A DNA stretch of 64,000 nt from Candidatus Cloacimonadota bacterium (GCA_019454875.1 JACFNL010000001.1:7511-71510); one strand, 5' to 3'. Positions 18,979 to 30,932 are shown, counted from the stretch's first letter. Translations and numbers: made by a program. Notes: a model not told the origin generated them from the sequence alone.

Positions 18979-19971
18979 TCATAACCTCCTGGTACGGGCA
19001 ATCAGAAAAAAATCTGCCAGTACCACAGCTAACATGGATTCCACAATAACCGGGGCACGGTAGGCCACACATGGGTCATGCCGGCCTTTGAGTTTTAAGC
19101 ATACAGGATTTCCCCGATTGTCTACAGTTTTCTGAGGCAAAAATATTGAAGCTGTAGGTTTAAAACTGACCCGTACCACTAAAGGCTGTCCGGTACTTAC
19201 CCCTCCCAGAATTCCACCGGCATGATTGGATAAAAATCCATTATCATCCATTTCATCATTGTGTTGAGAACCTTGCATGCTGACACAGTTACGCCCCGAA
19301 CCAATCTCCACACATTTGGCTGCCGGAATGGACATCATGGCATAAGCAATCCTGGCATCAAGCTTTTCATAAACCGGTTCTCCCAATCCAGTGGGAACTC
19401 CAGTGGCCACAACCTCAACCAGACCTCCTAGAGAGTCTCCCCTCTGTTTTGCCTTTAGAATCGCTTCCTGTATTTCATCTGGATCCTGATACTCTCCTAC
19501 CTGAACCACTCTTGCCGAAATAACAACCGAGGGCGGTAGTATCTGCATGGCTACGGCTCCGGCAATTACTCGGGCCACGGTTTCTCTTGCACTAGCCCGC
19601 CCTCCCCCGTGAGGATCCCATATCCCGTATTTTTTATCCCAGGCATAATCAGCATGTCCTGGACGGTATACACCTAAAAACTCCTGGTAGGCATTGGACT
19701 TTACATCCTCATTTTTAACCAAAAAACTTAAGGGAGCCCCCGTTGTAATTCCATCAACAAGCCCAGATAAAAGCTCAAACTCATCGGACTCTTTACGGGA
19801 ACTTGTGTAAACACTCAGTCCGGGCCTGCGTCTATGAAGCAAATTTTGAATCATTTCAAGGCTCAGATGAATTCCTGCCGGAACCCCATCTAAAACCACC
19901 CCTATGGCTTTCCCATGCGATTCTCCCCAGGAGGAAAAACGATAGAGAATACCAAAGGAATTAAGCCCCAC
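18979..19971 (-). CDS. aroC: Chorismate synthase
   Basis: Full-length match to the AroC family: N-terminus MGLNSFGILYRFSSWGESHGKAIGVVLDGVPAG, plus ...RRRPG..., GGRASARETVARV and GGILGG motifs. Confidence 0.92.
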   Translation of the reverse strand: MGLNSFGILYRFSSWGESHGKAIGVVLDGVPAGIHLSLEMIQNLLHRRRPGLSVYTSSRKESDEFELLSGLVDGITTGAPLSFLVKNEDVKSNAYQEFLGVYRPGHADYAWDKKYGIWDPHGGGRASARETVARVIAGAVAMQILPPSVVISARVVQVGEYQDPDEIQEAILKAKQRGDSLGGLVEVVATGVPTGLGEPVYEKLDARIAYAMMSIPAAKCVEIGSGRNCVSMQGSQHNDEMDDNGFLSNHAGGILGGVSTGQPLVVRVSFKPTASIFLPQKTVDNRGNPVCLKLKGRHDPCVAYRAPVIVESMLAVVLADFFLIARTRRL

Positions 19972-22705
19972 GAAAACCGACCTTCACCGAATCCCCCCAA
20001 CCCAGGATCTCAAATTCACGGCCAGTTCTGCTTAAAAGCTCCCAGGCTCTACGGTAGGAGCTTCGAGCCAATGCATCTTTTTGTGCCAGTTCCCCAATAC
20101 AGGAGGGCAAAATCACATCGGGTTGTATCTCCTCAATAAGCTGATAAAACAAATCCAAATCTCTTGTTTCATCACTGATAGGCAAAGGGACAAACAAAAG
20201 ATGGGTTTTAAAGTCCTTTCCTGCCTGTCGAATCACTTGCAATGCAGAACGATTATCCACCTCGCCAAGCACCAGAAGGTTCAACTTTTCTGTAATACTG
20301 ATACGAAAAGAACGCATATCAATATCAGTCACCATCGGGTAGCGGTAGCGGCCTGGAAGAGCCTCGATCTGAATGGACATATCATAAGGTCCCAAAGAAT
20401 ACAGTTCCCTCTTCTCCCATGCCTCAAATCCAATGACTCCATTCAGACACAGATTTTCCATCCCTGAGGGTACAATCACCAGTTTGTCATCACTAATCAT
20501 GCGGTTCACAATATCCAGATCCAGGTGATCTGGCAGTCTGTGAGTGACAAATGCAATATCTAAAAGCCTGGTGATTTCTGGAAATACATCGGGACGGATT
20601 TTCCAGTACATATCCCATACATGCTGGCAGGAAACTACATCGATGCCTAAATTCAGGGTTGGGGTCTCAAGGATATACCCCCCGTTATACATCTGATGAA
20701 TCAAAAGGCCATCTTCCACATCGTGGACTTTTAACTGATTAAGAACCCTAAGCATCCTTCTCTCAAAAAAATCCTTGAGCTGAGGACTTTTGGAAATTGC
20801 CGGAAAAGCCAGGATTCTATCCATTTCAAAAAGAGCTTCCCTATGTTCTTCCGACTGAAAACGAATGCTTTTAATCTTGTCGAGTGCCGATTCTACCCTC
20901 TCCAGTGATTTGCGAATAGCTGGAGTTCCGTACACTACAAACTGGGAGTTAAACCCTCCAAATCCATCGTAAACCTTGCTGATGTTATCTGGATCATCCA
21001 TCCAGTGCTTTTTATCGACCAAAAACTTATAGGCATGGGTGCCCTGGTCTTCAAATTCCAGTTCCACGGACCAGACGCCCCCCTCCTCTTTTTGCATGGG
21101 GGTTCCGTCCTTCCATTGGTTAAATGACCCCAGAACTTCCACGGTTTGTGCATCTCCTCTATATCTGAGGGTAACTTTATTGTCGCGAATCTGTGGGTAA
21201 CTAAAACCTGGGCTTAATACCCGTTTTTTTGCGGACCGTACAGCTTCTTTAGCCTGAACAACTCCACAGCCCTGGCGTTCCACCGGAACATTTTCCAGTC
21301 TCTTGGCCGTCTGCATAAGAATTTCTTTTACATTTTCAGGGCTTAATGAGGCATTAGCCTCCAGCATCTGCGCAATAATTGAGCAGACAATAGGGGCAGA
21401 AAAAGAGGTCCCATCCACATGCTGGTAGTGTGGGCTAATCAATTTGAATTCCCGCACCTTCTGTTCCATAAAGTTTTTTTTGCCCTGAAAATCCAGACCC
21501 TGCAAGGCCATAAAAAAAGGAATGGGATAATTGTAGTTATCCAGAATTTCTTCAAAATGCTTGGCCGTTCTGGCATGGGCCAGTTCCCATACCAGTTCTG
21601 CCTCACGATAAAACTCAGTGCCGGGTAGTGTCGGGGCTGCCACCCATATACCGGGAGCAATAATTTCCGGCTTCAGGATTCCGTCAGCCGTCACCCCATA
21701 ACTGGAGTGATACATATTATGAGTCCTTGATTCCAGGGAATTTCTGTCATCAAGCCCCCCCACAGTGATCACACTAGGACTGTTTCCCGGTGGGGTTACC
21801 CTCATCCAGCTTTCATTTCCGGCCGCCACTACAACATTGATTCCCGCCTGAATGGCCTCCTCAGCAGCATGATTGATGGATGATTCCCTAAATGAAGCTG
21901 CTTCATCCCCCGCACCTAGTGAAATGTTTAGAATCCGCAGATTGTAGCGTTTCTGTTTACGAATAGCCCACTCAATACCTGAGATAATAGCCTCAGTTGT
22001 AAAACCTTCCTGTCCCATCACTTTTAGCAGGGCTACATTGGCTTCGGAGGCAATTCCCTTATAAAGTCCATTGCTCAAATATCCATTCCCTACAGCACTG
22101 ACACAGGTTTGCATCCCATGCCAGCTATGAATATCCGGTTTTTCAAAATTGGATTTTGCCGCATTCGGAGAGCCCAGATCCTTATATGCAACCACACGGC
22201 GATAGGGTTTCATAATGTCGGGATGAGGATAAAATCCCCCATCCAGAAAGCCGATGCAGATTCCCTTACCCGTGTAGGCTGGATCGGCATCAAGTCGCAA
22301 AGGTGTTGGTAGAATTGTATATTCTTCTTTTCTACAGATAACTCTGGTACTTTTTAACTCCCTGACAAACTCTGCTTCCAGATTCTTTTTCAACAGTTCT
22401 TCCAGACCTGCCTGATTCATTTTATGAATCCCGGATCCAAACAGAAGTGAACCTGCCTGACTCATTTGCTGCCGCAGACGAATCAAAGTTTCATGGGGTA
22501 ACTGTCCCATCCATTCATCCTGAATTTTGGCCCGGATAACTTCCGTGGAAATTTTTGCCAAATATCCAATATCAAGTCCGGTTGTATAATAAAGCTCAAT
22601 CAGCAATCGCTCTTCACGGGAAACTTGTTCCGAATCAATTTCTTTCCAGGTACGGGCCTTGAGGTTCTTATCGAGCTGCAAACTATAAAAAAAACTCTCT
22701 ATCAC
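19961..22705 (-). CDS. Multi-domain protein: an N-terminal region, a subtilase (S8) domain, an AMPK-β-type carbohydrate-binding module (CBM48-like), and an MBL-fold domain with a variant metal motif. No signal peptide.
   Basis: The ORF frame runs to 22741 (TTG). The likely start is the GTG at 22705, preceded by GGAGGT and overlapping the stop of the upstream small ORF (GTGA). S8 triad context: GICIGFLDGGFYPHPD (Asp), SWHGMQTCVS (His), NISLGAG (oxyanion Asn), GTSFSAPIV (Ser). The CBM region VTLRYRGDAQTVEVLGSFNQWKDGTPM...HAYKFLVDKKHWMDDPDN matches the AMPK β-subunit glycogen-binding domain (GSFNNW...YKFFVDGQW..DP). The C-terminal MBL fold (GGYILETPTLNLGIDVVS...DIAFVTHRLPDHLD) has HRLPDH in place of HxHxDH. 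Confidence 0.8.
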   Translation of the reverse strand: MIESFFYSLQLDKNLKARTWKEIDSEQVSREERLLIELYYTTGLDIGYLAKISTEVIRAKIQDEWMGQLPHETLIRLRQQMSQAGSLLFGSGIHKMNQAGLEELLKKNLEAEFVRELKSTRVICRKEEYTILPTPLRLDADPAYTGKGICIGFLDGGFYPHPDIMKPYRRVVAYKDLGSPNAAKSNFEKPDIHSWHGMQTCVSAVGNGYLSNGLYKGIASEANVALLKVMGQEGFTTEAIISGIEWAIRKQKRYNLRILNISLGAGDEAASFRESSINHAAEEAIQAGINVVVAAGNESWMRVTPPGNSPSVITVGGLDDRNSLESRTHNMYHSSYGVTADGILKPEIIAPGIWVAAPTLPGTEFYREAELVWELAHARTAKHFEEILDNYNYPIPFFMALQGLDFQGKKNFMEQKVREFKLISPHYQHVDGTSFSAPIVCSIIAQMLEANASLSPENVKEILMQTAKRLENVPVERQGCGVVQAKEAVRSAKKRVLSPGFSYPQIRDNKVTLRYRGDAQTVEVLGSFNQWKDGTPMQKEEGGVWSVELEFEDQGTHAYKFLVDKKHWMDDPDNISKVYDGFGGFNSQFVVYGTPAIRKSLERVESALDKIKSIRFQSEEHREALFEMDRILAFPAISKSPQLKDFFERRMLRVLNQLKVHDVEDGLLIHQMYNGGYILETPTLNLGIDVVSCQHVWDMYWKIRPDVFPEITRLLDIAFVTHRLPDHLDLDIVNRMISDDKLVIVPSGMENLCLNGVIGFEAWEKRELYSLGPYDMSIQIEALPGRYRYPMVTDIDMRSFRISITEKLNLLVLGEVDNRSALQVIRQAGKDFKTHLLFVPLPISDETRDLDLFYQLIEEIQPDVILPSCIGELAQKDALARSSYRRAWELLSRTGREFEILGWGDSVKVGFRGA

Positions 22706-22878
22706 TGGCTGACCTCCAGGACAAATCGACGGTAAAACCAAAGAACCTTCTGGGGAGATTCTACCCAGGCCGGATACCGTTCCCTAATCTTGTTAAGAAG
22801 ATGTTCCTCAGTCTGGAAATGATAGTCAAAAAGTTCCTTGTCGACATCGCGATTACAGATTGGGCAAAGTTGTTTCAT
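22702..22878 (-). CDS. Small C2H2-like zinc-finger protein (58 aa)
   Basis: The likely start is the ATG at 22878, 2 nt after the stop of the 22881..23300 ORF. The ORF-track version (85 aa, start 22959) overlaps that ORF. Sequence: MKQLCPICNRDVDKELFDYHFQTEEHLLNK..., a CxxC-x11-H-x5-H arrangement. Its TGA stop overlaps the GTG start of the subtilase gene. Confidence 0.45.
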   Translation of the reverse strand: MKQLCPICNRDVDKELFDYHFQTEEHLLNKIRERYPAWVESPQKVLWFYRRFVLEVSQ

Positions 22879-22880
22879 AT

Positions 22881-23300
22881 TTAATAAATCCCGTTTCGAA
22901 AGATCAGTTGACCTTGACTCCAGCCACCATACAAAGTGGGGCCAATATATATCTTGCAAGATAATCTTGACAATAAAGGTATCGATTCCATTTCCTCAAC
23001 AGAGTATCTATGTAAAAGATTCAGTGTAGAAGGCAAAATCTCTCTTAGATATGTGGCAACATCCTCTTTCCAGTCCCGATTATGATCAATGTATCCTGGA
23101 CTTAGACGAATCTGCATTTGTACAGGTTCATCCGTTGCACTGAGGCGAAACGAGACTCGGATCAGGGGACGGGAAACCTTTAATGCATGGGCATCCAGTC
23201 TGATTTTAAAATGTTTGCGATCCACTGGAAAAAACTTTTCTGAGTAGGCAAACACGGGGGAAAACCCAAACAGGAATATGACAAACAATATAAGCGGCAT
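22881..23300 (-). CDS. Small secreted hypothetical protein (139 aa)
   Basis: Signal peptide MPLILFVIFLFGFSPVFA. It lies between the coiled-coil protein gene and the zinc-finger miniprotein gene on the same strand. Confidence 0.5.
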   Translation of the reverse strand: MPLILFVIFLFGFSPVFAYSEKFFPVDRKHFKIRLDAHALKVSRPLIRVSFRLSATDEPVQMQIRLSPGYIDHNRDWKEDVATYLREILPSTLNLLHRYSVEEMESIPLLSRLSCKIYIGPTLYGGWSQGQLIFRNGIY

Positions 23301-23323: not shown

Positions 23324-24649
23324 TCAGAAGAAACTTAGGAAATCCATTTCACGAGACTCAAGAATCGTGGTAATAAAAAGCTCTCGAGGTGGATTTTTAA
23401 AGAGAGCTACAGGATCTTTGGCCTTAACACGGCTGTTATCCTTAACTAAAAACTGAAAGTCTCCCTCAAAAGTAATCTGGGTGGCATGACAGGTAAACGA
23501 AAGGCTTCGTTCCCCTATAGTCACCTGGGAATCACAGGGTGCCAAAACCCTTGGCCTTGACAGAGAAACAAGCTGTATAAAGGGGCGGTCTGGATGAAAA
23601 TTCTGCTTTACAACCCCTGGTTCTTCCAATGGCCACTTAAGGGTTTTGCCCTGCTTCATCTTGTTTTGAAACCAGGAAAAAAATGCCATATCCACAGCCT
23701 CGATATCCATGACATCAAGCTTCTGTAACTTAAGGCCATCCCTTTCCAGATTTTTTATCAAAAAACCCTTTTCCCATTCCAGTTTTTTAAGATTAAGCTC
23801 CAGCTCATTTCGTCCAACAGAAGCCTGTACTGCCTGCTCCAACTCTACAATTCTTTCAACATTGCGTCTGGCGGGAAGGGTGAGTAACAAAGAGTGATCT
23901 CGTACTGCCTGCACAAAAAACTCTGTTTTATCGGCCTCGGTCATTACAACCTTACTCTGCTTCTCAATCCTTTGGGAAAACTCGCTGGCATATTGTTCTA
24001 GCTGCACCTGAAACATGGCAGTCTGTGGGGAGTTTGTGCCATACATCTGCATGGAGCTAAGGGCCAGTGCAAACGAATCCCTTGCTCTTTCATCCACTAA
24101 AGAGGCCTTCCAGGAGTTCAAAAACGCCTTCTTTTCCTTATCTTCCTTGAGCTGGGGCAGCACCCTCAAGGCCGCATTTGTTACCGGGGTTTTTTCAGGC
24201 AACAAGGGAGAAGAGGACAGCAAGTCAGGGTTTTCATCCTTTTGATGAATCACAGCTTTCACAGAAGCACGGGCTACTTTGGCATCCACAAAACGACTGG
24301 CATATTCTCTTTTTAAAGACTCCAGTCTCTTTTGTTCTTCACGATATTTGGTCTGCATTCCCGAGGGAAGTAAAACAGCCTGATCCAGGGCCTGAAGCTG
24401 TCTATCCTTTACATCAATTTGCTGAACAACGGCCGAATCCACAGAATCCGTGATCCGATCATAAAAAACCTGTTCTTCAGTGCTACTTAAAACAATTGTA
24501 TTTCGCGTGGAAGCAAACTGGGCCTGGGCACGGGTTTCCTGCCTAAGTCCATCCAGAAAATCAATGCTTTGAGTCGAGTCCTCCGCCCTGATTTGACTGG
24601 CAAAAAAAACAAGACCCAAAAAACCAATTGGTCGAAACCAGCTCAACAT
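23324..24649 (-). CDS. Secreted coiled-coil protein with a C-terminal β-rich domain (about 441 aa)
   Basis: The start is set at the ATG at 24649, 1 nt after the stop of the upstream gene (TAAtATG); the ORF track extends to 24685. Signal peptide MLSWFRPIGFLGLVFFASQIRA. A long predicted coiled coil follows. The C-terminal ~100 aa are β-rich with 2 Cys. Confidence 0.65.
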   Translation of the reverse strand: MLSWFRPIGFLGLVFFASQIRAEDSTQSIDFLDGLRQETRAQAQFASTRNTIVLSSTEEQVFYDRITDSVDSAVVQQIDVKDRQLQALDQAVLLPSGMQTKYREEQKRLESLKREYASRFVDAKVARASVKAVIHQKDENPDLLSSSPLLPEKTPVTNAALRVLPQLKEDKEKKAFLNSWKASLVDERARDSFALALSSMQMYGTNSPQTAMFQVQLEQYASEFSQRIEKQSKVVMTEADKTEFFVQAVRDHSLLLTLPARRNVERIVELEQAVQASVGRNELELNLKKLEWEKGFLIKNLERDGLKLQKLDVMDIEAVDMAFFSWFQNKMKQGKTLKWPLEEPGVVKQNFHPDRPFIQLVSLSRPRVLAPCDSQVTIGERSLSFTCHATQITFEGDFQFLVKDNSRVKAKDPVALFKNPPRELFITTILESREMDFLSFF

Positions 24650-24650
24650 A

Positions 24651-26483
24651 TTAACGATCAGGATTCTCAGAAATCCGGAAAACATCTCGGGTTATCGATC
24701 CCGATGAGTTTCTGTATACAATGAGTTGATCCATAAAATTACCGGGTCCATCAGCCATACCATTGCGGCATTGTGTCGAACATTCCATATAATCTTCGTT
24801 GTAGTCATGAATATTACTTGGGGGAAAACTGCCAGTAGGCCTTTCCTCAAGCATATGTTTGGCCCTGGCCACTGCATCCATTGAGCCTTCACCCTCAGGA
24901 CGAACATCAGAACCCTGAGCTGGTGGCAGAACAGCACCTGATACTCTGGGTTCTACACCAGACGCGCCACTGTCACCATCGGCATCTGCATCACCGTCAA
25001 TCATGCGCCCCATCCCCCCCATAGGGCTTATGCCAGAATCACCCGAAGATGCCTGAGCATAATTCTGCACCTTTGGATTTGGGGTCCCCGTGCTTGCTGC
25101 TTCCCTGGCCAGGTTGGTGGCCTTGATCGGGGTTCCACCTGCATACAGAGTGGCTTGACGAAAAATGTCAGGATTGTTACGGGCCTCAATCAAGGACAAT
25201 TCACGAATGGCCGCAAAAGCACCGTGAGCTTCGGCTAGTTCTGCTAGCCCCATGTCTTCCCCACTAGTCAGTTTACGGCCTTCGCCTTGACCCACGACAG
25301 CAAAAAGCTTATCACGATCCAAGGAGTTGCTACCCTCTCCTGACAATTCGGAATCCGTGGTAGTGGTGCCATTTTTTGCCACATAAGCGGCATAATAAGC
25401 ATCTTTACATTCCGCACTGTCCGATGGTGGTTTTACCCCAAGTGTACCAGCTTCCTTACAAAACTTGAGTCTGGACTCATCATCTTTAATCTGCTCATGC
25501 AAGGTGGACAGTTTAGTTTCCTCAATCAGTCTTGGGATAATATCACCTGCAAAATTCTGATTCAATTTATCCACAAAGCTCTTGCGCCCACTTTCCTCGT
25601 CCAGATTATGTTTGCTGGATATACTTCCCACCGCATTCAAAAATGAGTCTGAGGGCACATAAATTGAGCCCTTGACACCATCCTTGAGTTTGTCTCCATC
25701 GGTCAGATTTTTCTGGGTGAACATATCAGCTTCCAGACGACATTCCGCCGCTGACTTTCCCTGTCCTGCGCACTGATTAAAGGCTGCAAGAATGGATTGG
25801 CTTAAATCAATATTATTTAAACCATCTTCGCCCAGACCAAAAAACTCCTGAGAAAAAAACTTGGTTGCATCCCCCTTGTATGGTTCGCCTTGGACATCAT
25901 CCACAGAAACCATGCGAGCACACTGACCCTCAAAAAACTCTGCCTGTTCTGCAGCACAGTCAATCTGTCGCTTAACAGCCGAATTCCGGTTCAAAAAATT
26001 TTCCTGAGCCGCTCTAGCCTCTGGTTTATCAATTTTACCCAGACCATACAAAATTGCGGCTGTGGAGGCAGATCGACTGATTCCAAAATTAGTGAAAAAT
26101 ACTTCCATGGTGGCACACTCTGCATCACCTGCACAGTTTGAACCTGATTTTGCCTTGGAGTTACCCTTTAGTCCAGCAATGGTGGAATCATTAACACCAT
26201 AACCAAACATCTGGGCACAATTTTTATCTGCCTGGGAGGCACAGGAACTGTCCTGGCATCGATCCACGCGGCAAGTTTCCATCATGCCCGCTCCGTAGTT
26301 CCCCACCTCATCACGCATGGACTCATCCAAGGCTCTGACATCCCTGCAAAAAATCTCCATGCTACGATCCAGTCCTGGTTTGGCACAATCCTGCTCCCAG
26401 CGATTTTGCGTTTCGGTTGTATTCGCCCAACACAAATTGGCAAGTCCCGCAATCAGTAAAACCGGAATTAATTTTTGCACCAT
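24651..26483 (-). CDS. Secreted Cys-rich protein (about 610 aa)
   Basis: The start is set at the ATG at 26483, with GAGGGAAG 8 nt upstream; the ORF track has a TTG at 26513. Signal peptide MVQKLIPVLLIAGLANLCWA. The N-terminal ~170 aa hold about 14 Cys. The central region is Gly/Asp-rich low complexity, and the C-terminus carries a further CxxxC. Confidence 0.65.
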   Translation of the reverse strand: MVQKLIPVLLIAGLANLCWANTTETQNRWEQDCAKPGLDRSMEIFCRDVRALDESMRDEVGNYGAGMMETCRVDRCQDSSCASQADKNCAQMFGYGVNDSTIAGLKGNSKAKSGSNCAGDAECATMEVFFTNFGISRSASTAAILYGLGKIDKPEARAAQENFLNRNSAVKRQIDCAAEQAEFFEGQCARMVSVDDVQGEPYKGDATKFFSQEFFGLGEDGLNNIDLSQSILAAFNQCAGQGKSAAECRLEADMFTQKNLTDGDKLKDGVKGSIYVPSDSFLNAVGSISSKHNLDEESGRKSFVDKLNQNFAGDIIPRLIEETKLSTLHEQIKDDESRLKFCKEAGTLGVKPPSDSAECKDAYYAAYVAKNGTTTTDSELSGEGSNSLDRDKLFAVVGQGEGRKLTSGEDMGLAELAEAHGAFAAIRELSLIEARNNPDIFRQATLYAGGTPIKATNLAREAASTGTPNPKVQNYAQASSGDSGISPMGGMGRMIDGDADADGDSGASGVEPRVSGAVLPPAQGSDVRPEGEGSMDAVARAKHMLEERPTGSFPPSNIHDYNEDYMECSTQCRNGMADGPGNFMDQLIVYRNSSGSITRDVFRISENPDR

Positions 26484-26520
26484 ACACTTCCCTCGCAACA
26501 CTACCTGATCCAATTATAAG

Positions 26521-26552
26521 AAAAAATAGCCCAAGCGCAATGCGTTGGGCTA
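26521..26552 (-). terminator. Rho-independent terminator (minus strand) between the Ser/Thr-rich protein gene and the Cys-rich protein gene
   Basis: A perfect 8-bp stem, TAGCCCAA/TTGGGCTA (26527-26534 / 26545-26552), with a 10-nt loop. On the minus-strand transcript it is followed by UUUUUU (26521-26526). It overlaps a TATAAT -10 element (revcomp of 26513-26518) for the downstream gene. Confidence 0.5.
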
Positions 26553-26570
26553 TTTAGTTAAATCCATTGC

Positions 26571-28484
26571 TTATGGACGATCCAAATTAGTTCTTACCAG
26601 GTCTTCATCAAAGTTTGCCATATTCTCGTAAACAAACTTCAAACAGTTGTCATAATCGTTGCCAAAATTCTCATCACAATACTTCAGTGTCTCTTCCGAA
26701 ATACCCTGTCTGAGCAGATCTGTCCGATTTTTGACAGCTTTATCGTCTCCGGGTACAACATTCAGTCCAGCACCCATCACAACTGCCCCATCACTTAAAG
26801 TATGGACTACCCGTTTATTTCCATCTTCATCCAGAACTGTCTCAGCCGAGACCGGAACTGCATTAAGACTCTGCCTGGCAACCAATACATCTCTCTCAAG
26901 CTCAGTAACTCTGAAACCACCAGCAGGCGCAACAGGCCGCTCATCCGGAGTGGTGGACTGGGGCCTTACACCACTATCAGGGGTGGTGCTAGCAGGAACA
27001 ATAACCACCTCGTTGTCAGTATCACTGTCTGACATTCTATCCACAGTGGTGGTTCCCGATGCCTCTGCTGAAAGCGTACGGTCAAATTCCTCAAACTCAG
27101 TGGTAGTGGGTTGAGAAGCCAGGCTTTGCTGCTCTCTATCATTGATGACATCATCTTCTGTAGTTCTTTGAGAAGCTGGACCACTGTAAAAACTAGACCC
27201 AGTCAAAGCCATATCATCAGGATTGGGATCTACCACCGGTTCATCGCCCCACACAATATCGGTAGGCAGGTAATCCGGTGTGGTTTCGACAGAACCTGCT
27301 GCCGCAACTGGCTCAGGGGAAGAACTTGTTACAGATGACTGTGCGGCAGATATAGCTTCTTCGGGGTCAACATCACCAGGAGTAACTACATTCTGGCCAG
27401 TCAAATCAGGAATAGGGCTTATTGCACCTGATTCAGGAGCTGTGCTGCCTTCTGATGAATTTCTTGGAGCTGTGACAATAATATCTTCCCCAATAACTTC
27501 AACAGAGGCCACATCTTCAGTCGCATCACCAGCGTCCGATGTTGTTGTACTAGCCGCTGTAGATGGTTGTGGACTTCTGGCGGCAGCCAGACCGGAATCA
27601 TTAGGACCACAAAAGGTATTGGGAGCCATTGGCCCAATAAAATCCGTACCACAGGCCGAATCAATCGGTCTGCCAGGTATTGGTAAATTGTCATTATAAA
27701 TTCGGATCTGTTCTACGGTAGCATCAGCAGGCAAACCACGGAAATTTTTGGCTGCATCAATAATGCTTTGATGTTCTGAGGGTTCGCTGGTACCCGCTAA
27801 AAGCTGAGTTAAGTCTGGAGTTGCTGCCGATGAGGTGGTTTGTGATGCCGGGGCTGGTGTTCCAGGCAATCCTGTTGTGGAAGGATCCTGAAAGTCAGCC
27901 AGCAGGCAGACCGCTCCGGGGCCTTCTCCCTTTTCAACTGAGGTAGCACGACCACTACCATCATAAGTAATTCTCATGCCCTCTTCATACTCAAGGGGTT
28001 TGCGATTACCCGCATAGCCTGTCATGACGATCTGCCCATCCCTGGTGTAAATATAACCTTCAGGGGATACGGTAAGGCCACTGTCTGGAGTGGGAACTAC
28101 AGGGGAGGAAGAGCTGGTTCGGGAAGCCGGCTGGCTCTGGGAGCCTGCAACAGGTTCAGACACCGGATCTACTCTTGGGGTTGTGCCAGCACTAGACACA
28201 GCCACAGCGGAATCCCGGGTGACCACGGCTGCTGGTGTGACAGCAACTGTTGGGACGGTGTTCACAGTGGCAGTAGGCTCTGGGGGACAGGGAACCCCTA
28301 CAACATCCCGAGTCCAGCAGGCTGCGGTTGCACCCACATTATATATTGCCGAACCCGCCCGGGAATACCAGGGTCTATCATCGGTCGTTTCGGTTGCAGC
28401 CATCAACATAGGTGTAACCGCAGTAAAACAGGTTACCATCAGCGATGAGCGAACAAAATTTCTGAAATTGTAATACTGCACCAT
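26571..28484 (-). CDS. Secreted Ser/Thr/Pro/Asp-rich acidic protein (637 aa)
   Basis: Hydrophobic N-terminus (…SSLMVTCFTAVTPMLMAA), with GGGAGG 8 nt upstream of the ATG. Low-complexity T/S/P/A/V/D/E-rich sequence dominates most of the length. There is a short YD-like segment (GYIYTRDGQIVMTGYAGN...MRITYDGSGRATSV). The C-terminal ~120 aa are more ordered, with 2 Cys. Confidence 0.6.
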   Translation of the reverse strand: MVQYYNFRNFVRSSLMVTCFTAVTPMLMAATETTDDRPWYSRAGSAIYNVGATAACWTRDVVGVPCPPEPTATVNTVPTVAVTPAAVVTRDSAVAVSSAGTTPRVDPVSEPVAGSQSQPASRTSSSSPVVPTPDSGLTVSPEGYIYTRDGQIVMTGYAGNRKPLEYEEGMRITYDGSGRATSVEKGEGPGAVCLLADFQDPSTTGLPGTPAPASQTTSSAATPDLTQLLAGTSEPSEHQSIIDAAKNFRGLPADATVEQIRIYNDNLPIPGRPIDSACGTDFIGPMAPNTFCGPNDSGLAAARSPQPSTAASTTTSDAGDATEDVASVEVIGEDIIVTAPRNSSEGSTAPESGAISPIPDLTGQNVVTPGDVDPEEAISAAQSSVTSSSPEPVAAAGSVETTPDYLPTDIVWGDEPVVDPNPDDMALTGSSFYSGPASQRTTEDDVINDREQQSLASQPTTTEFEEFDRTLSAEASGTTTVDRMSDSDTDNEVVIVPASTTPDSGVRPQSTTPDERPVAPAGGFRVTELERDVLVARQSLNAVPVSAETVLDEDGNKRVVHTLSDGAVVMGAGLNVVPGDDKAVKNRTDLLRQGISEETLKYCDENFGNDYDNCLKFVYENMANFDEDLVRTNLDRP

Positions 28485-28557: not shown

Positions 28558-29589
28558 CTAAACCTTGTAGCGCAAAGGCACATCGGATGCTTCCAGTTTT
28601 CCTGCCGTGACAAGAGACTCAAAAGCTCTGGAATATGGAATACAATCTTTTTTGCTACCGGCCTTGTGGAATGCCAGGACAGAGGCCAGATTCCCATCGC
28701 GCAAGTGTTTACGGGGCTGGGGGTGCATGGTTAGTGCTTCTTTTACAAGATGTGGCTCACCGATACTACTGGTAAAAAAAGACTGATGATAAATACCGTT
28801 CAGACAGGACACAAGCAATCCTCTGAGTTCCCGGCTCTGGGATAACATCTGGGTTATTTTATGAATGGTGTTTTCTATATCCAGAGACAAAAAGGTTCCA
28901 AAAACCAGGATACCCCTGCTGGCAAGCCGAACAGCAGCTTCCAGTCTCTGAAGGCTATTGATATCCCCAAGGGCAACCACATTTACATCCGCTTTCATCA
29001 GGGACTGTACCGCTAAAGAAAAATCCACAATATCACGGTCATAAGTGCGTCGCGATAGAAGACTTCTTTCAAACAGAGGGAACTCGCCTTCCAGTACATC
29101 GTCAAGCTGCACCATACTCCAGGAATGATTGGAGCCAAGATGCTGCAAAATGGCATTCTGGGTAGTACTGCGCCCTGAGTCAGGTGTTCCACAGATAAGA
29201 TACAAACCAGAACGCTTATTGAGCCAGGAATCGATCAGGGGTTCCAAAAACCCCAATTCTTTTAATTCAAACACCTTGGTTTCAATCAGCTTTCCAGAAA
29301 CTCCAAGAGTACCCCTTTGTCTGTACACACTAAGTCTTGCCGAATAACGCGGGCTGAAGGGATATCCAACAATAACATCCTGGCCTTCCAGAACCTTGCG
29401 CTTAGAGGACTCATCCACAAAAGAATCTACAATCTGATACACTTCATTGGACAAAAGCCTCTCGCAATCAAATCTCTTCACACCCTTTCTATCCTGCATT
29501 ACCGGGGTTGTTCCCGAAATAATGTGAAGCCAGCGACAGTTCGCATCAATAGCATCCCGCAAAAACTCGTCAATATGCCGTTTATCCAT
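28558..29589 (-). CDS. PilT-family (type IV pilus retraction ATPase-like) protein with degenerate catalytic motifs
   Basis: Aligns along its full length with PilT (N-domain, ...FSL.V..L.RFRV..Y...G core). Walker A is GTPDSGRSTT, with Lys replaced by Arg. The Asp box is DVNVVALGDINS, i.e. GD where GE is canonical. The His-box is ILVFGTFLSLD, with both His lost. Its start shares 1 nt with the stop of the upstream PilT-like gene (TAATG). Confidence 0.8.
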   Translation of the reverse strand: MDKRHIDEFLRDAIDANCRWLHIISGTTPVMQDRKGVKRFDCERLLSNEVYQIVDSFVDESSKRKVLEGQDVIVGYPFSPRYSARLSVYRQRGTLGVSGKLIETKVFELKELGFLEPLIDSWLNKRSGLYLICGTPDSGRSTTQNAILQHLGSNHSWSMVQLDDVLEGEFPLFERSLLSRRTYDRDIVDFSLAVQSLMKADVNVVALGDINSLQRLEAAVRLASRGILVFGTFLSLDIENTIHKITQMLSQSRELRGLLVSCLNGIYHQSFFTSSIGEPHLVKEALTMHPQPRKHLRDGNLASVLAFHKAGSKKDCIPYSRAFESLVTAGKLEASDVPLRYKV

Positions 29590-30932
29590 TAAAAATCATC
29601 CCCAACTTTACGCTTCAACTGCGGCCGGTAGCGAGATTCAAAATTGTCCCTTTCCTCAATCTCCTCCAAAAGTGCATCAAAATCCAAAATCTGGTTCTGC
29701 ACCATCTCAAAAGCCCGTTTGTGCAGGGAACGACAATTGGGTAAGGTCTCCAGCTGAGGAAGAATACCCTGCCACCTGCATTCGCGAATCAGGTTTCTAA
29801 GATTGGCATCCGGGATCATGTATTCCCGCACCGGAACCACGGCTTTGTCTAAATCATGATACAGATGCTGGCAAAGGCACAAACGCAGGCTATGGGAAAA
29901 TCGATCCAGAAGACTTTGATTCCCCTCTCTAGGAATCAGACTTGTAAGCGTTTCCAAAGCAGCTGTAACTGATACCCCAGGTACTGTCAAAATCACATTC
30001 ACTGAACTCTCGGCTGCAGTAATCAGAAATTCAAGAAGCTCCAAACTGTCTACAGAGGAAACAAAAAGCCAGTTCACTCCCCCCTTTAAGACATAGCGGA
30101 CTCCCGAAACTATACTTTGCATGTCCGATCCGACTTCTCTTTGGGTAATACTTGCCACTGCATCACGAAACAGAAATTCAATTGGATCTTCAAAGGTTTG
30201 AATTCTTAAAGGTTTTGTCTGGTTCAGATGGTTCAGAATGGCCGCCACAAGTGTACTTTTACCTGCAACCGCTGGACCACTGATTAAATAAAGTCCTCCC
30301 TGTCCCTCTTCCAAAGACTGAAGAATCGTAGATTCAAGGTTTAAGGACGATAGTTCAGGTATATCAAATGGAATCTGCTTTAAACTGATAGCCGGCCGAC
30401 CTGCCTCATGATAGGCACTTACCCGAAATCTGGATAATCCGGGAACAGAGAGAGAAAAATCCACAACCTTATACTGAGATAGAATTGCCGAATAGGCCGG
30501 AGAAATATATTCCCCGATGATAGCCTGTAAATCTCCCACACTAAATATAGGAACATCAGCTAATTCATGCAAAGAGCCACCAACCCTTACATGGGGCTTC
30601 AAATCCGGCTTTAGGTGAAGCACTTCTGCCTTCATTTCCTTGACAGTTTTAAGGATTCTTAAAAACTGCTCCCCTACTTCTTCGCCTTGAAGCTGCACCC
30701 TGCGAGGGCCTGTGCGTTTTTCCACAAGCTCCAGTTTTTGCAGGGCCTGTTTATATAGCTGGGGTTGAACCTGTTTGGTCTTCAACTTTTCCAAAACCCG
30801 CTTTAAAAAAACGATATCTTCATTAGGAAGGGAGGCAATAGCTTCGACAGGCTGCCGGATCAGTACTTCCAAGGGAGCATTAAATACTCCCTGACAATTT
30901 TTGAGTGCTTCCCTGAAGTCTTTCATGAACAT
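29589..30932 (-). CDS. PilT-family protein with a ~100-aa N-terminal extension and degenerate Walker B/His-box
   Basis: Walker A GPAVAGKST is intact and the PilT C-terminal signature LRNLIRE is present. The Asp box reads NWLFVSSVDSLE, with SS in place of GE. The His-box region ILTVPGVSV has no His. The motifs DFSLSVPGLSRFRVSAYHEAG and TFEDPIEF are conserved. Confidence 0.8.
   Translation of the reverse strand: MFMKDFREALKNCQGVFNAPLEVLIRQPVEAIASLPNEDIVFLKRVLEKLKTKQVQPQLYKQALQKLELVEKRTGPRRVQLQGEEVGEQFLRILKTVKEMKAEVLHLKPDLKPHVRVGGSLHELADVPIFSVGDLQAIIGEYISPAYSAILSQYKVVDFSLSVPGLSRFRVSAYHEAGRPAISLKQIPFDIPELSSLNLESTILQSLEEGQGGLYLISGPAVAGKSTLVAAILNHLNQTKPLRIQTFEDPIEFLFRDAVASITQREVGSDMQSIVSGVRYVLKGGVNWLFVSSVDSLELLEFLITAAESSVNVILTVPGVSVTAALETLTSLIPREGNQSLLDRFSHSLRLCLCQHLYHDLDKAVVPVREYMIPDANLRNLIRECRWQGILPQLETLPNCRSLHKRAFEMVQNQILDFDALLEEIEERDNFESRYRPQLKRKVGDDF

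What the first reader, a model, noticed from the sequence alone, without database searches (positions are those of the whole stretch)
23324..28484. Three consecutive large secreted proteins of unknown function immediately downstream of the degenerate PilT pair
In the sequence: a 637-aa low-complexity T/S/P/D/E-rich acidic protein with a YD-like segment and an ordered C-terminal domain. Then a terminator/promoter junction. Then a ~610-aa protein with ~14 Cys in its first 170 residues and a Gly/Asp-rich middle. Then a ~441-aa signal-peptide coiled-coil protein with a β-rich C-terminal domain that starts 1 nt after the previous stop (TAAtATG). All three have signal peptides and no enzymatic motifs. 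Their codons are visibly G+C-richer than those of the surrounding genes, which follows from the Ala/Gly/Pro/Thr/Ser-rich composition. With the PilT-like pseudo-ATPases upstream they may form an uncharacterised surface or fibre apparatus. This is inference only.
Basis: inference. Interest (0 to 1): 0.55.

Follow-up and report, generated by a model that had tools for sequence, protein, structure and literature searches.

The report
Clade-restricted exported proteins beside pilus genes
Three real, exported proteins from an uncultivated bacterial lineage belong to a gene block conserved only in that clade: the first is always encoded next to pilus-type genes, the third looks like a cell-wall hydrolase regulator (EnvC-like), and the second has no recognisable relative, so this is a modestly interesting lead and not a demonstrated new apparatus.

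Summary
The three ORFs exist as described, on the minus strand. Prot1 is 637 aa, Prot2 610 aa and Prot3 441 aa. The terminator after Prot1 and the TAAtATG junction are both present. Two details are wrong. Prot2 has 9 Cys in its first 170 residues, not about 14. Prot3 is not G+C-richer than its neighbours.

The window comes from a candidate-phylum MAG (UBP17, labelled "Cloacimonetes" at NCBI). All three proteins are conserved, always in this order, in at least eight related uncultivated lineages and nowhere else. Prot2 matches only 7 clusters among 1.84 billion representative proteins.

- **Prot2** gives a confident all-α model with no PDB match.
- **Prot1** carries a weak YgdI/YgdR-like segment, not YD repeats.

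The PilT pair is linked only in the window's own lineage. In six other lineages the same slot holds a giant GspK/PilX-like protein and two prepilin-type minor pilins.

The terminator separates Prot1, which goes with the pilus-type genes, from Prot2 and Prot3, which go with housekeeping genes. Function is inferred only.

The parts
29589..30932 (-). PilT-like ATPase paralogue, 447 aa. Walker A is intact (GPAVAGKST), while the Walker B Glu and the His box are lost. It is the first gene of the inferred unit A.
   Evidence: Pfam T2SSE E 5.5e-10. TIGR01420 scores 177 bits against a cut-off of 319. Motifs were read from the translation. Homologues occur only in L001 and L003.
28558..29589 (-). PilT-like ATPase paralogue, 343 aa, with Walker A K->R (GTPDSGRST). 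It overlaps the upstream gene by 1 nt.
   Evidence: Pfam T2SSE E 9.3e-10. TIGR01420 scores 128 bits against a cut-off of 319. Coordinates and translation.
26571..28484 (-). Prot1, 637 aa. It has a Sec signal peptide and is an acidic, largely low-complexity exported protein with three conserved islands: a small beta segment, a four-Cys 'C..DFIGP..C' module and a two-Cys C-terminal domain. It is the last gene of unit A.
   Evidence: ORF and GGGAGG ribosome-binding site. Composition. Family alignment A6 with invariant C278, C292, C603 and C614. Homologues in L001, L004, L006, L008, L010, L011, L013, L016 and L018.
27900..28097 (-). Prot1 residues ~130-195: the 'YD-like' segment. It is weakly similar to the YgdI/YgdR (DUF903) small lipoprotein beta-domain.
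   Evidence: A profile of 7 family segments hits 2rd1 (E 0.018), 2rb6 (0.09), 2ra2 (0.75) and 2jn0 YgdR (0.97). Pfam gives nothing.
26518..26555 (-). Intrinsic terminator: an 11-pair stem with one bulge, followed by a T-run. It lies between Prot1 and Prot2 and is followed by TATAAT at about 26510-26515.
   Evidence: Fold -18.1 kcal/mol, z -3.34. Conserved in L001. An analogous terminator plus an 11/12 promoter sits at the same junction in L010.
24651..26483 (-). Prot2, 610 aa. It has a Sec signal peptide (…LCWA|NTTE), an all-alpha domain (residues ~25-470) with conserved Cys pairs and an E(A/I)RNNP(D/E) motif, and a disordered Gly/Asp-rich tail. It is the first gene of unit B.
23324..24649 (-). 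Prot3, 441 aa. It has a Sec signal peptide, a ~300-residue helical (coiled-coil-like) region and a C-terminal degenerate LytM-like beta-domain ending in a conserved DFLSFF.
23327..23638 (-). Prot3 residues ~338-441: the degenerate LytM (M23-fold) domain.
22881..23300 (-). p139, a small Sec-exported protein ending in GIY. It follows Prot3 in nearly all lineages seen; it was not called in L006/L007.
   Evidence: Alignment A10. No PDB or family hit.
22702..22878 (-). 58-aa CxxC…H…H zinc-ribbon-like protein with no signal peptide. It is the most conserved small gene of the block (55-60% identity in distant lineages) and abuts or overlaps the S8 peptidase gene.
   Evidence: Alignment A5. tblastn. 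Used to find L012 and L013.
19961..22741 (-). S8 subtilase with a CBM48/AMPK-beta-like module and a long C-terminal domain, and no signal peptide. It is the conserved downstream neighbour; the start codon is uncertain.
   Evidence: Pfam Peptidase_S8 E 2.5e-40 and AMPK1_CBM E 2e-12. 54-65% identical in L006, L007, L010, L012 and L013.

Best explanation
The three genes are real and encode Sec-exported envelope proteins. They are restricted to one deep, uncultivated clade (UBP17, with relatives labelled 'Cloacimonadota'). They do not form one three-gene module. They straddle two transcription units of a conserved block.

Unit A ends with Prot1. In the window it reads PilT-like, PilT-like, Prot1, terminator. 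In at least six other lineages it reads giant GspK/PilX-like protein, two prepilin-type minor pilins, Prot1 homologue. I infer that Prot1 is an accessory of a type IV filament machine (pilus or type II secretion-like pseudopilus). It is most likely a periplasm-folded, disulfide-bonded protein that the filament tip displays or expels. Its long acidic disordered spacer would lie between a small N-terminal beta-domain and a Cys-knotted C-terminal domain.

Unit B starts with Prot2, Prot3 and p139. Prot3 is an EnvC-like regulator: signal peptide, long helical region and a catalytically dead LytM domain. By analogy it would bind and activate a peptidoglycan hydrolase and would not cut peptidoglycan itself. 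Prot2 is an all-alpha, disulfide-stabilised protein of no known fold. Its gene is tightly coupled to Prot3 in the window, so it is the most plausible partner or client.

Shown: the gene structures, the conservation, the gene order, the terminator, the LytM fold match, the non-conservation of the catalytic residues and the prepilin motifs in relatives. Inferred: export, co-transcription, every protein-protein relationship and every function.
For: - Gene models, junctions and terminator.
- Orthologues and synteny in the same lineage.
- The Prot2 family has only 7 clusters among 1.84e9 representatives.
- Contexts of those homologues: 1035-1090 aa protein, two N_methyl/TIGR02532 pilin-like genes, Prot1 family, Prot2 family, Prot3 family, p139, Zn-ribbon, S8 in L010, L016/L017 and, apart from an inverted Prot3 gene and an uncalled Zn-ribbon gene, L018. 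L013 shows it as far as the Zn-ribbon ORF, and tblastn places an S8 homologue just downstream. L006/L007 show it without a called p139. L008 and L011 show it up to a contig-truncated Prot3-family ORF.
- tblastn confirms homology of Prot1, Prot2, Prot3, p139 and the Zn-ribbon protein to the window.
- PilT-pair homologues occur only in L001 and L003.
- The same terminator-promoter boundary between the Prot1-family and Prot2-family genes is present in L010.
- Prot2: confident all-alpha model without PDB matches.
- Prot1 and Prot2 diverge faster (75% and 60-63% identity to L001) than their neighbours (87-96%), as expected for exposed proteins.
Against: - Synteny in this clade also runs through obviously unrelated housekeeping genes (S8, aroB/DE/K/C, TPR, dnaX). 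Conserved order alone is weak evidence of shared function.
- No pilin gene, secretin, platform protein or prepilin motif occurs in the 64-kb window or in L001/L003.
- The PilT pair is degenerate and is linked in one lineage only.
- The Prot3 homologue is inverted in L005 and L018, so it need not be co-transcribed with Prot2.
- The LytM assignment rests on a model built from 3 sequences (mean pLDDT 56). Sequence methods give almost nothing: hhalign to E. coli EnvC has probability 12%, and PDB hmmsearch finds nothing.
- No model was made for Prot1.
- Signal peptides were judged by eye.
- No FtsX or amidase gene is in the window.
Confidence: 0.45

Rival explanations
1. Inherited synteny only. The three genes encode unrelated, fast-evolving, lineage-specific envelope proteins. 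They sit next to pilus-type genes because gene order is broadly conserved in this clade, and no functional link to a filament exists. Prot3 would simply be the lineage's divisome EnvC working with FtsEX and an amidase encoded elsewhere.
For: - Conserved order extends through S8, the aro genes, TPR and dnaX.
- The upstream partner differs between lineages: PilT pair in one, pilins in the others.
- Prot3 has the full EnvC architecture.
- UBP17 is reported as the phylum with the most novel gene families per genome, so orphan runs are expected (PMC10849945).
- Prot3 is inverted yet retained in L005 and L018.
Against: - Two different classes of type IV filament genes occupy the same slot directly upstream of Prot1.
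- A terminator places Prot1 in their transcription unit in the window and in L010.
- The block's upstream breakpoint varies between lineages (leuS, AAA_14/toxin-antitoxin genes, TPR/DnaB_C), yet the pilin-to-Prot1 adjacency is kept in six lineages.
Confidence: 0.3
2. Prot1, Prot2 and Prot3, together with the two PilT-like pseudo-ATPases, are subunits of one previously undescribed surface fibre or adhesion machine.
For: - Adjacency and same-strand orientation in the window, L001 and L003.
- All three are exported.
- The order Prot1-Prot2-Prot3 is kept in all lineages seen.
- A third T2SSE-family gene (MshEN domain) lies 9 kb away.
Against: - PilT linkage is absent outside one lineage.
- A strong, conserved terminator splits Prot1 from Prot2 and Prot3.
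- Prot3 resembles a cell-wall hydrolase regulator, not a fibre subunit.
- None of the three has a prepilin motif or any adhesin, repeat or beta-helix family hit.
- Prot2 and Prot3 share their operon with aroC and dnaX.
Confidence: 0.15
3. Secreted substrates. Prot1 and Prot2 are cargo (effectors or adhesins) of a type II secretion-like system, encoded next to its pseudopilin tip genes. Prot3 and p139 are periplasmic helpers.
For: - Sec signal peptides and conserved Cys pairs suggest periplasmic folding before export.
- Fast divergence.
- Position next to GspI/J/K-like genes in relatives.
Against: - No secretin, GspC/D/F/L/M or major pseudopilin is seen in any fetched locus.
- No enzymatic or toxin domain is detectable.
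- This reading overlaps the best explanation and cannot be separated from tip display with these data.
Confidence: 0.1

Closest known systems
EnvC, the murein hydrolase activator of the FtsEX-EnvC-amidase system (E. coli, V. cholerae), and dLytM factors in general (NlpD, DipM, ActS)
   Different: Prot3 does not reach Pfam PF01551, and hhalign to E. coli EnvC gives probability 12%. It has a conserved C-terminal DFLSFF motif that E. coli EnvC lacks. It is encoded next to Prot2 and p139, not next to ftsEX, gpmI or ctpA. No partner amidase or FtsX was identified. The coiled-coil geometry was predicted only at low confidence.
Minor-pilin / tip-complex operons of type IV pili and type II secretion (FimU-PilVWX-PilY1; GspH-I-J-K), and pilin-like cassettes such as the Verru_Chthon cassette
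   Same: In relatives the Prot1 homologue is the last gene after a large protein with a GspK/PilX-like N-terminus, (K/R)GSV(T/A)L(M/L)AF with no Glu5, and two prepilin-type genes with weak GspI/PilV/XpsI and ComGE/GspJ similarity. A non-pilin, Sec-exported protein encoded at the end of a minor-pilin operon is the position PilY1 occupies (my knowledge).
   Different: Prot1 has no vWA, beta-propeller or PilY1/PilC domain hit. The giant protein has no hit to GspK, PilX, PilY1 or Verru_Chthon protein A. Only two pilin-like genes are present, not four. In the window itself no pilin gene is present at all.
YgdI/YgdR (DUF903) small outer-membrane lipoproteins
   Same: The Prot1 segment 'Y.Y/L-T-[RK]-D/N-G-Q-[IV]-V…P…Y-D-..-G…[SV]-[VI]-E' gives the four best PDB profile hits to this family (E 0.018-0.97).
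   Different: The hits are below significance, and Pfam does not detect the domain. Here the segment is one part of a 637-aa non-lipoprotein. The function of DUF903 is itself unknown.
PilT/PilU retraction ATPases
   Same: The two upstream genes are T2SSE-family proteins whose best match is the PilT family.
   Different: Both score far below the family cut-off (177 and 128 bits against 319). Each lacks key catalytic motifs (read directly). They are not part of the three-protein finding and are linked to it only in this lineage.

Membership tests
EnvC-type dLytM murein hydrolase activator (Prot3) | Cleavable N-terminal signal peptide | tested here: met
   MLSWFRPIGFLGLVFFASQIRA|EDS, read from the sequence. 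Homologues have equivalent N-termini. No dedicated predictor was available.
EnvC-type dLytM murein hydrolase activator (Prot3) | Two or more long coiled-coil helices between the signal peptide and the LytM domain | tested here: inconclusive
EnvC-type dLytM murein hydrolase activator (Prot3) | C-terminal LytM (M23) fold | tested here: met
EnvC-type dLytM murein hydrolase activator (Prot3) | Inactivated catalytic site (HxxxD and HxH lost) | tested here: met
   In the 7-sequence alignment A7 no His or Asp in the C-terminal domain is invariant. 'FHPD' is TKNK, EKDK, DKER or VSDE in homologues, and the terminal 'LFITTIL' replaces 'HLHFE'. The mapping onto the canonical motifs was done by eye.
EnvC-type dLytM murein hydrolase activator (Prot3) | Sequence membership (Pfam PF01551 gathering score) | tested here: not met
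   No hit for the window protein at E<=10. The best family member reaches E 0.0068, below the curated threshold. PDB hmmsearch finds nothing.
EnvC-type dLytM murein hydrolase activator (Prot3) | Binds FtsX and activates an Amidase_3 enzyme | not testable with these tools
   No ftsX or amidase gene was found among the window ORFs that were scanned. The rest of the genome could not be searched.
Active M23 metallopeptidase (Prot3) | Zn ligands H, D, H plus the catalytic H | tested here: not met
   No His or Asp in the domain is invariant in A7, so the ligand positions do not appear to be conserved.
Type IV pilin / pseudopilin (Prot1, Prot2, Prot3) | Prepilin leader with G|F/M-T-L-x-E and a hydrophobic alpha1-N helix | tested here: not met
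   A six-frame regex scan of the window, L001 and L003 found no such motif. There are no N_methyl or TIGR02532 hits.
Type IV filament gene cluster (block as a whole) | Conserved adjacency to core or minor filament genes | tested here: met
   Met for Prot1 only: the PilT pair lies upstream in the window, L001 and L003, and two prepilin-type genes plus a giant K-like protein lie upstream in L006/7, L008, L010, L011/16/17, L013 and L018. No secretin, platform protein, assembly ATPase or major pilin occurs in any of these loci.
PilY1/PilC tip adhesins (Prot1, Prot2) | vWA and/or C-terminal beta-propeller (Neisseria_PilC/PilY1) domain | tested here: not met
   No Pfam, NCBIfam or PDB profile hits. 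The Prot2 model is all-alpha.
Rhs/YD-repeat proteins (Prot1) | Tandem YD repeats detectable with RHS_repeat models | tested here: not met
   There is a single segment only. Pfam gives no hit even at E<=10. The weak similarity is to DUF903 instead.
Known adhesin / surface-anchor classes (autotransporter, T9SS CTD, LPXTG, Ig-like, cadherin) | Any corresponding domain model hit | tested here: not met
   No Pfam or NCBIfam hits at E<=0.1 for any of the three.

The most novel reading that the evidence does not exclude
The whole block (giant K-like protein, two minor pilins, Prot1, Prot2, EnvC-like Prot3, p139) encodes a previously undescribed, clade-specific tip or cargo module of a type IV filament. 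Two proteins of new fold would be displayed or expelled by the filament. A dedicated dLytM regulator would open the cell wall for it. In the UBP17 lineage the module would have been re-wired to a pair of catalytically degenerate PilT-like proteins.
Probability: 0.15. Interest if true: 0.6.

Novelty: new variant of a known kind. Interest (0 to 1): 0.36.

Why it matters
- If Prot1 and perhaps Prot2 really are filament-associated, the block would give a first functional handle on part of the very large set of unknown genes in UBP17-like bacteria. That phylum is reported to carry the most novel gene families per genome (PMC10849945).
- It would also add a new kind of tip or cargo protein to type IV filament biology.
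- Prot3 shows that EnvC-type regulators can diverge beyond the reach of sequence models while keeping their architecture.
- Prot2 is a candidate new all-alpha fold.
- None of this is demonstrated. As it stands the finding is a well-delimited conserved block of hypothetical envelope proteins in an uncultivated clade.

Tried and rejected
- Pfam and NCBIfam on all three proteins and p139 gave nothing.
- PDB sequence-profile searches with family alignments of Prot1, Prot2, Prot3, the giant protein, p139 and the Zn-ribbon protein gave nothing significant, apart from the weak DUF903 hits for the Prot1 segment.
- Word-indexed homologue searches found only the same-lineage orthologues and one 38% relative. 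The third search, run with the 8-sequence Prot2 profile, added nothing.
- The first JGI metagenome scan with the Prot3 alignment found nothing. The second, with the Zn-ribbon alignment, found two loci.
- The GTDB genome scan returned only one species, UBA6191.
- Exact look-up of the window's Prot1 and of P0001 returned no contig.
- The AFDB fold libraries were not available.
- I asked whether Prot2 is a lipoprotein. I rejected this because it has no lipobox and the Cys is absent in the orthologue.
- Horizontal acquisition as the cause of the higher G+C was rejected. The excess lies in codon position 2, not position 3.
- hhalign of the Prot3 family against E. coli EnvC aligned the expected 'VKAGDPIA / VRAGQPIA' strand, but only at 12% probability.

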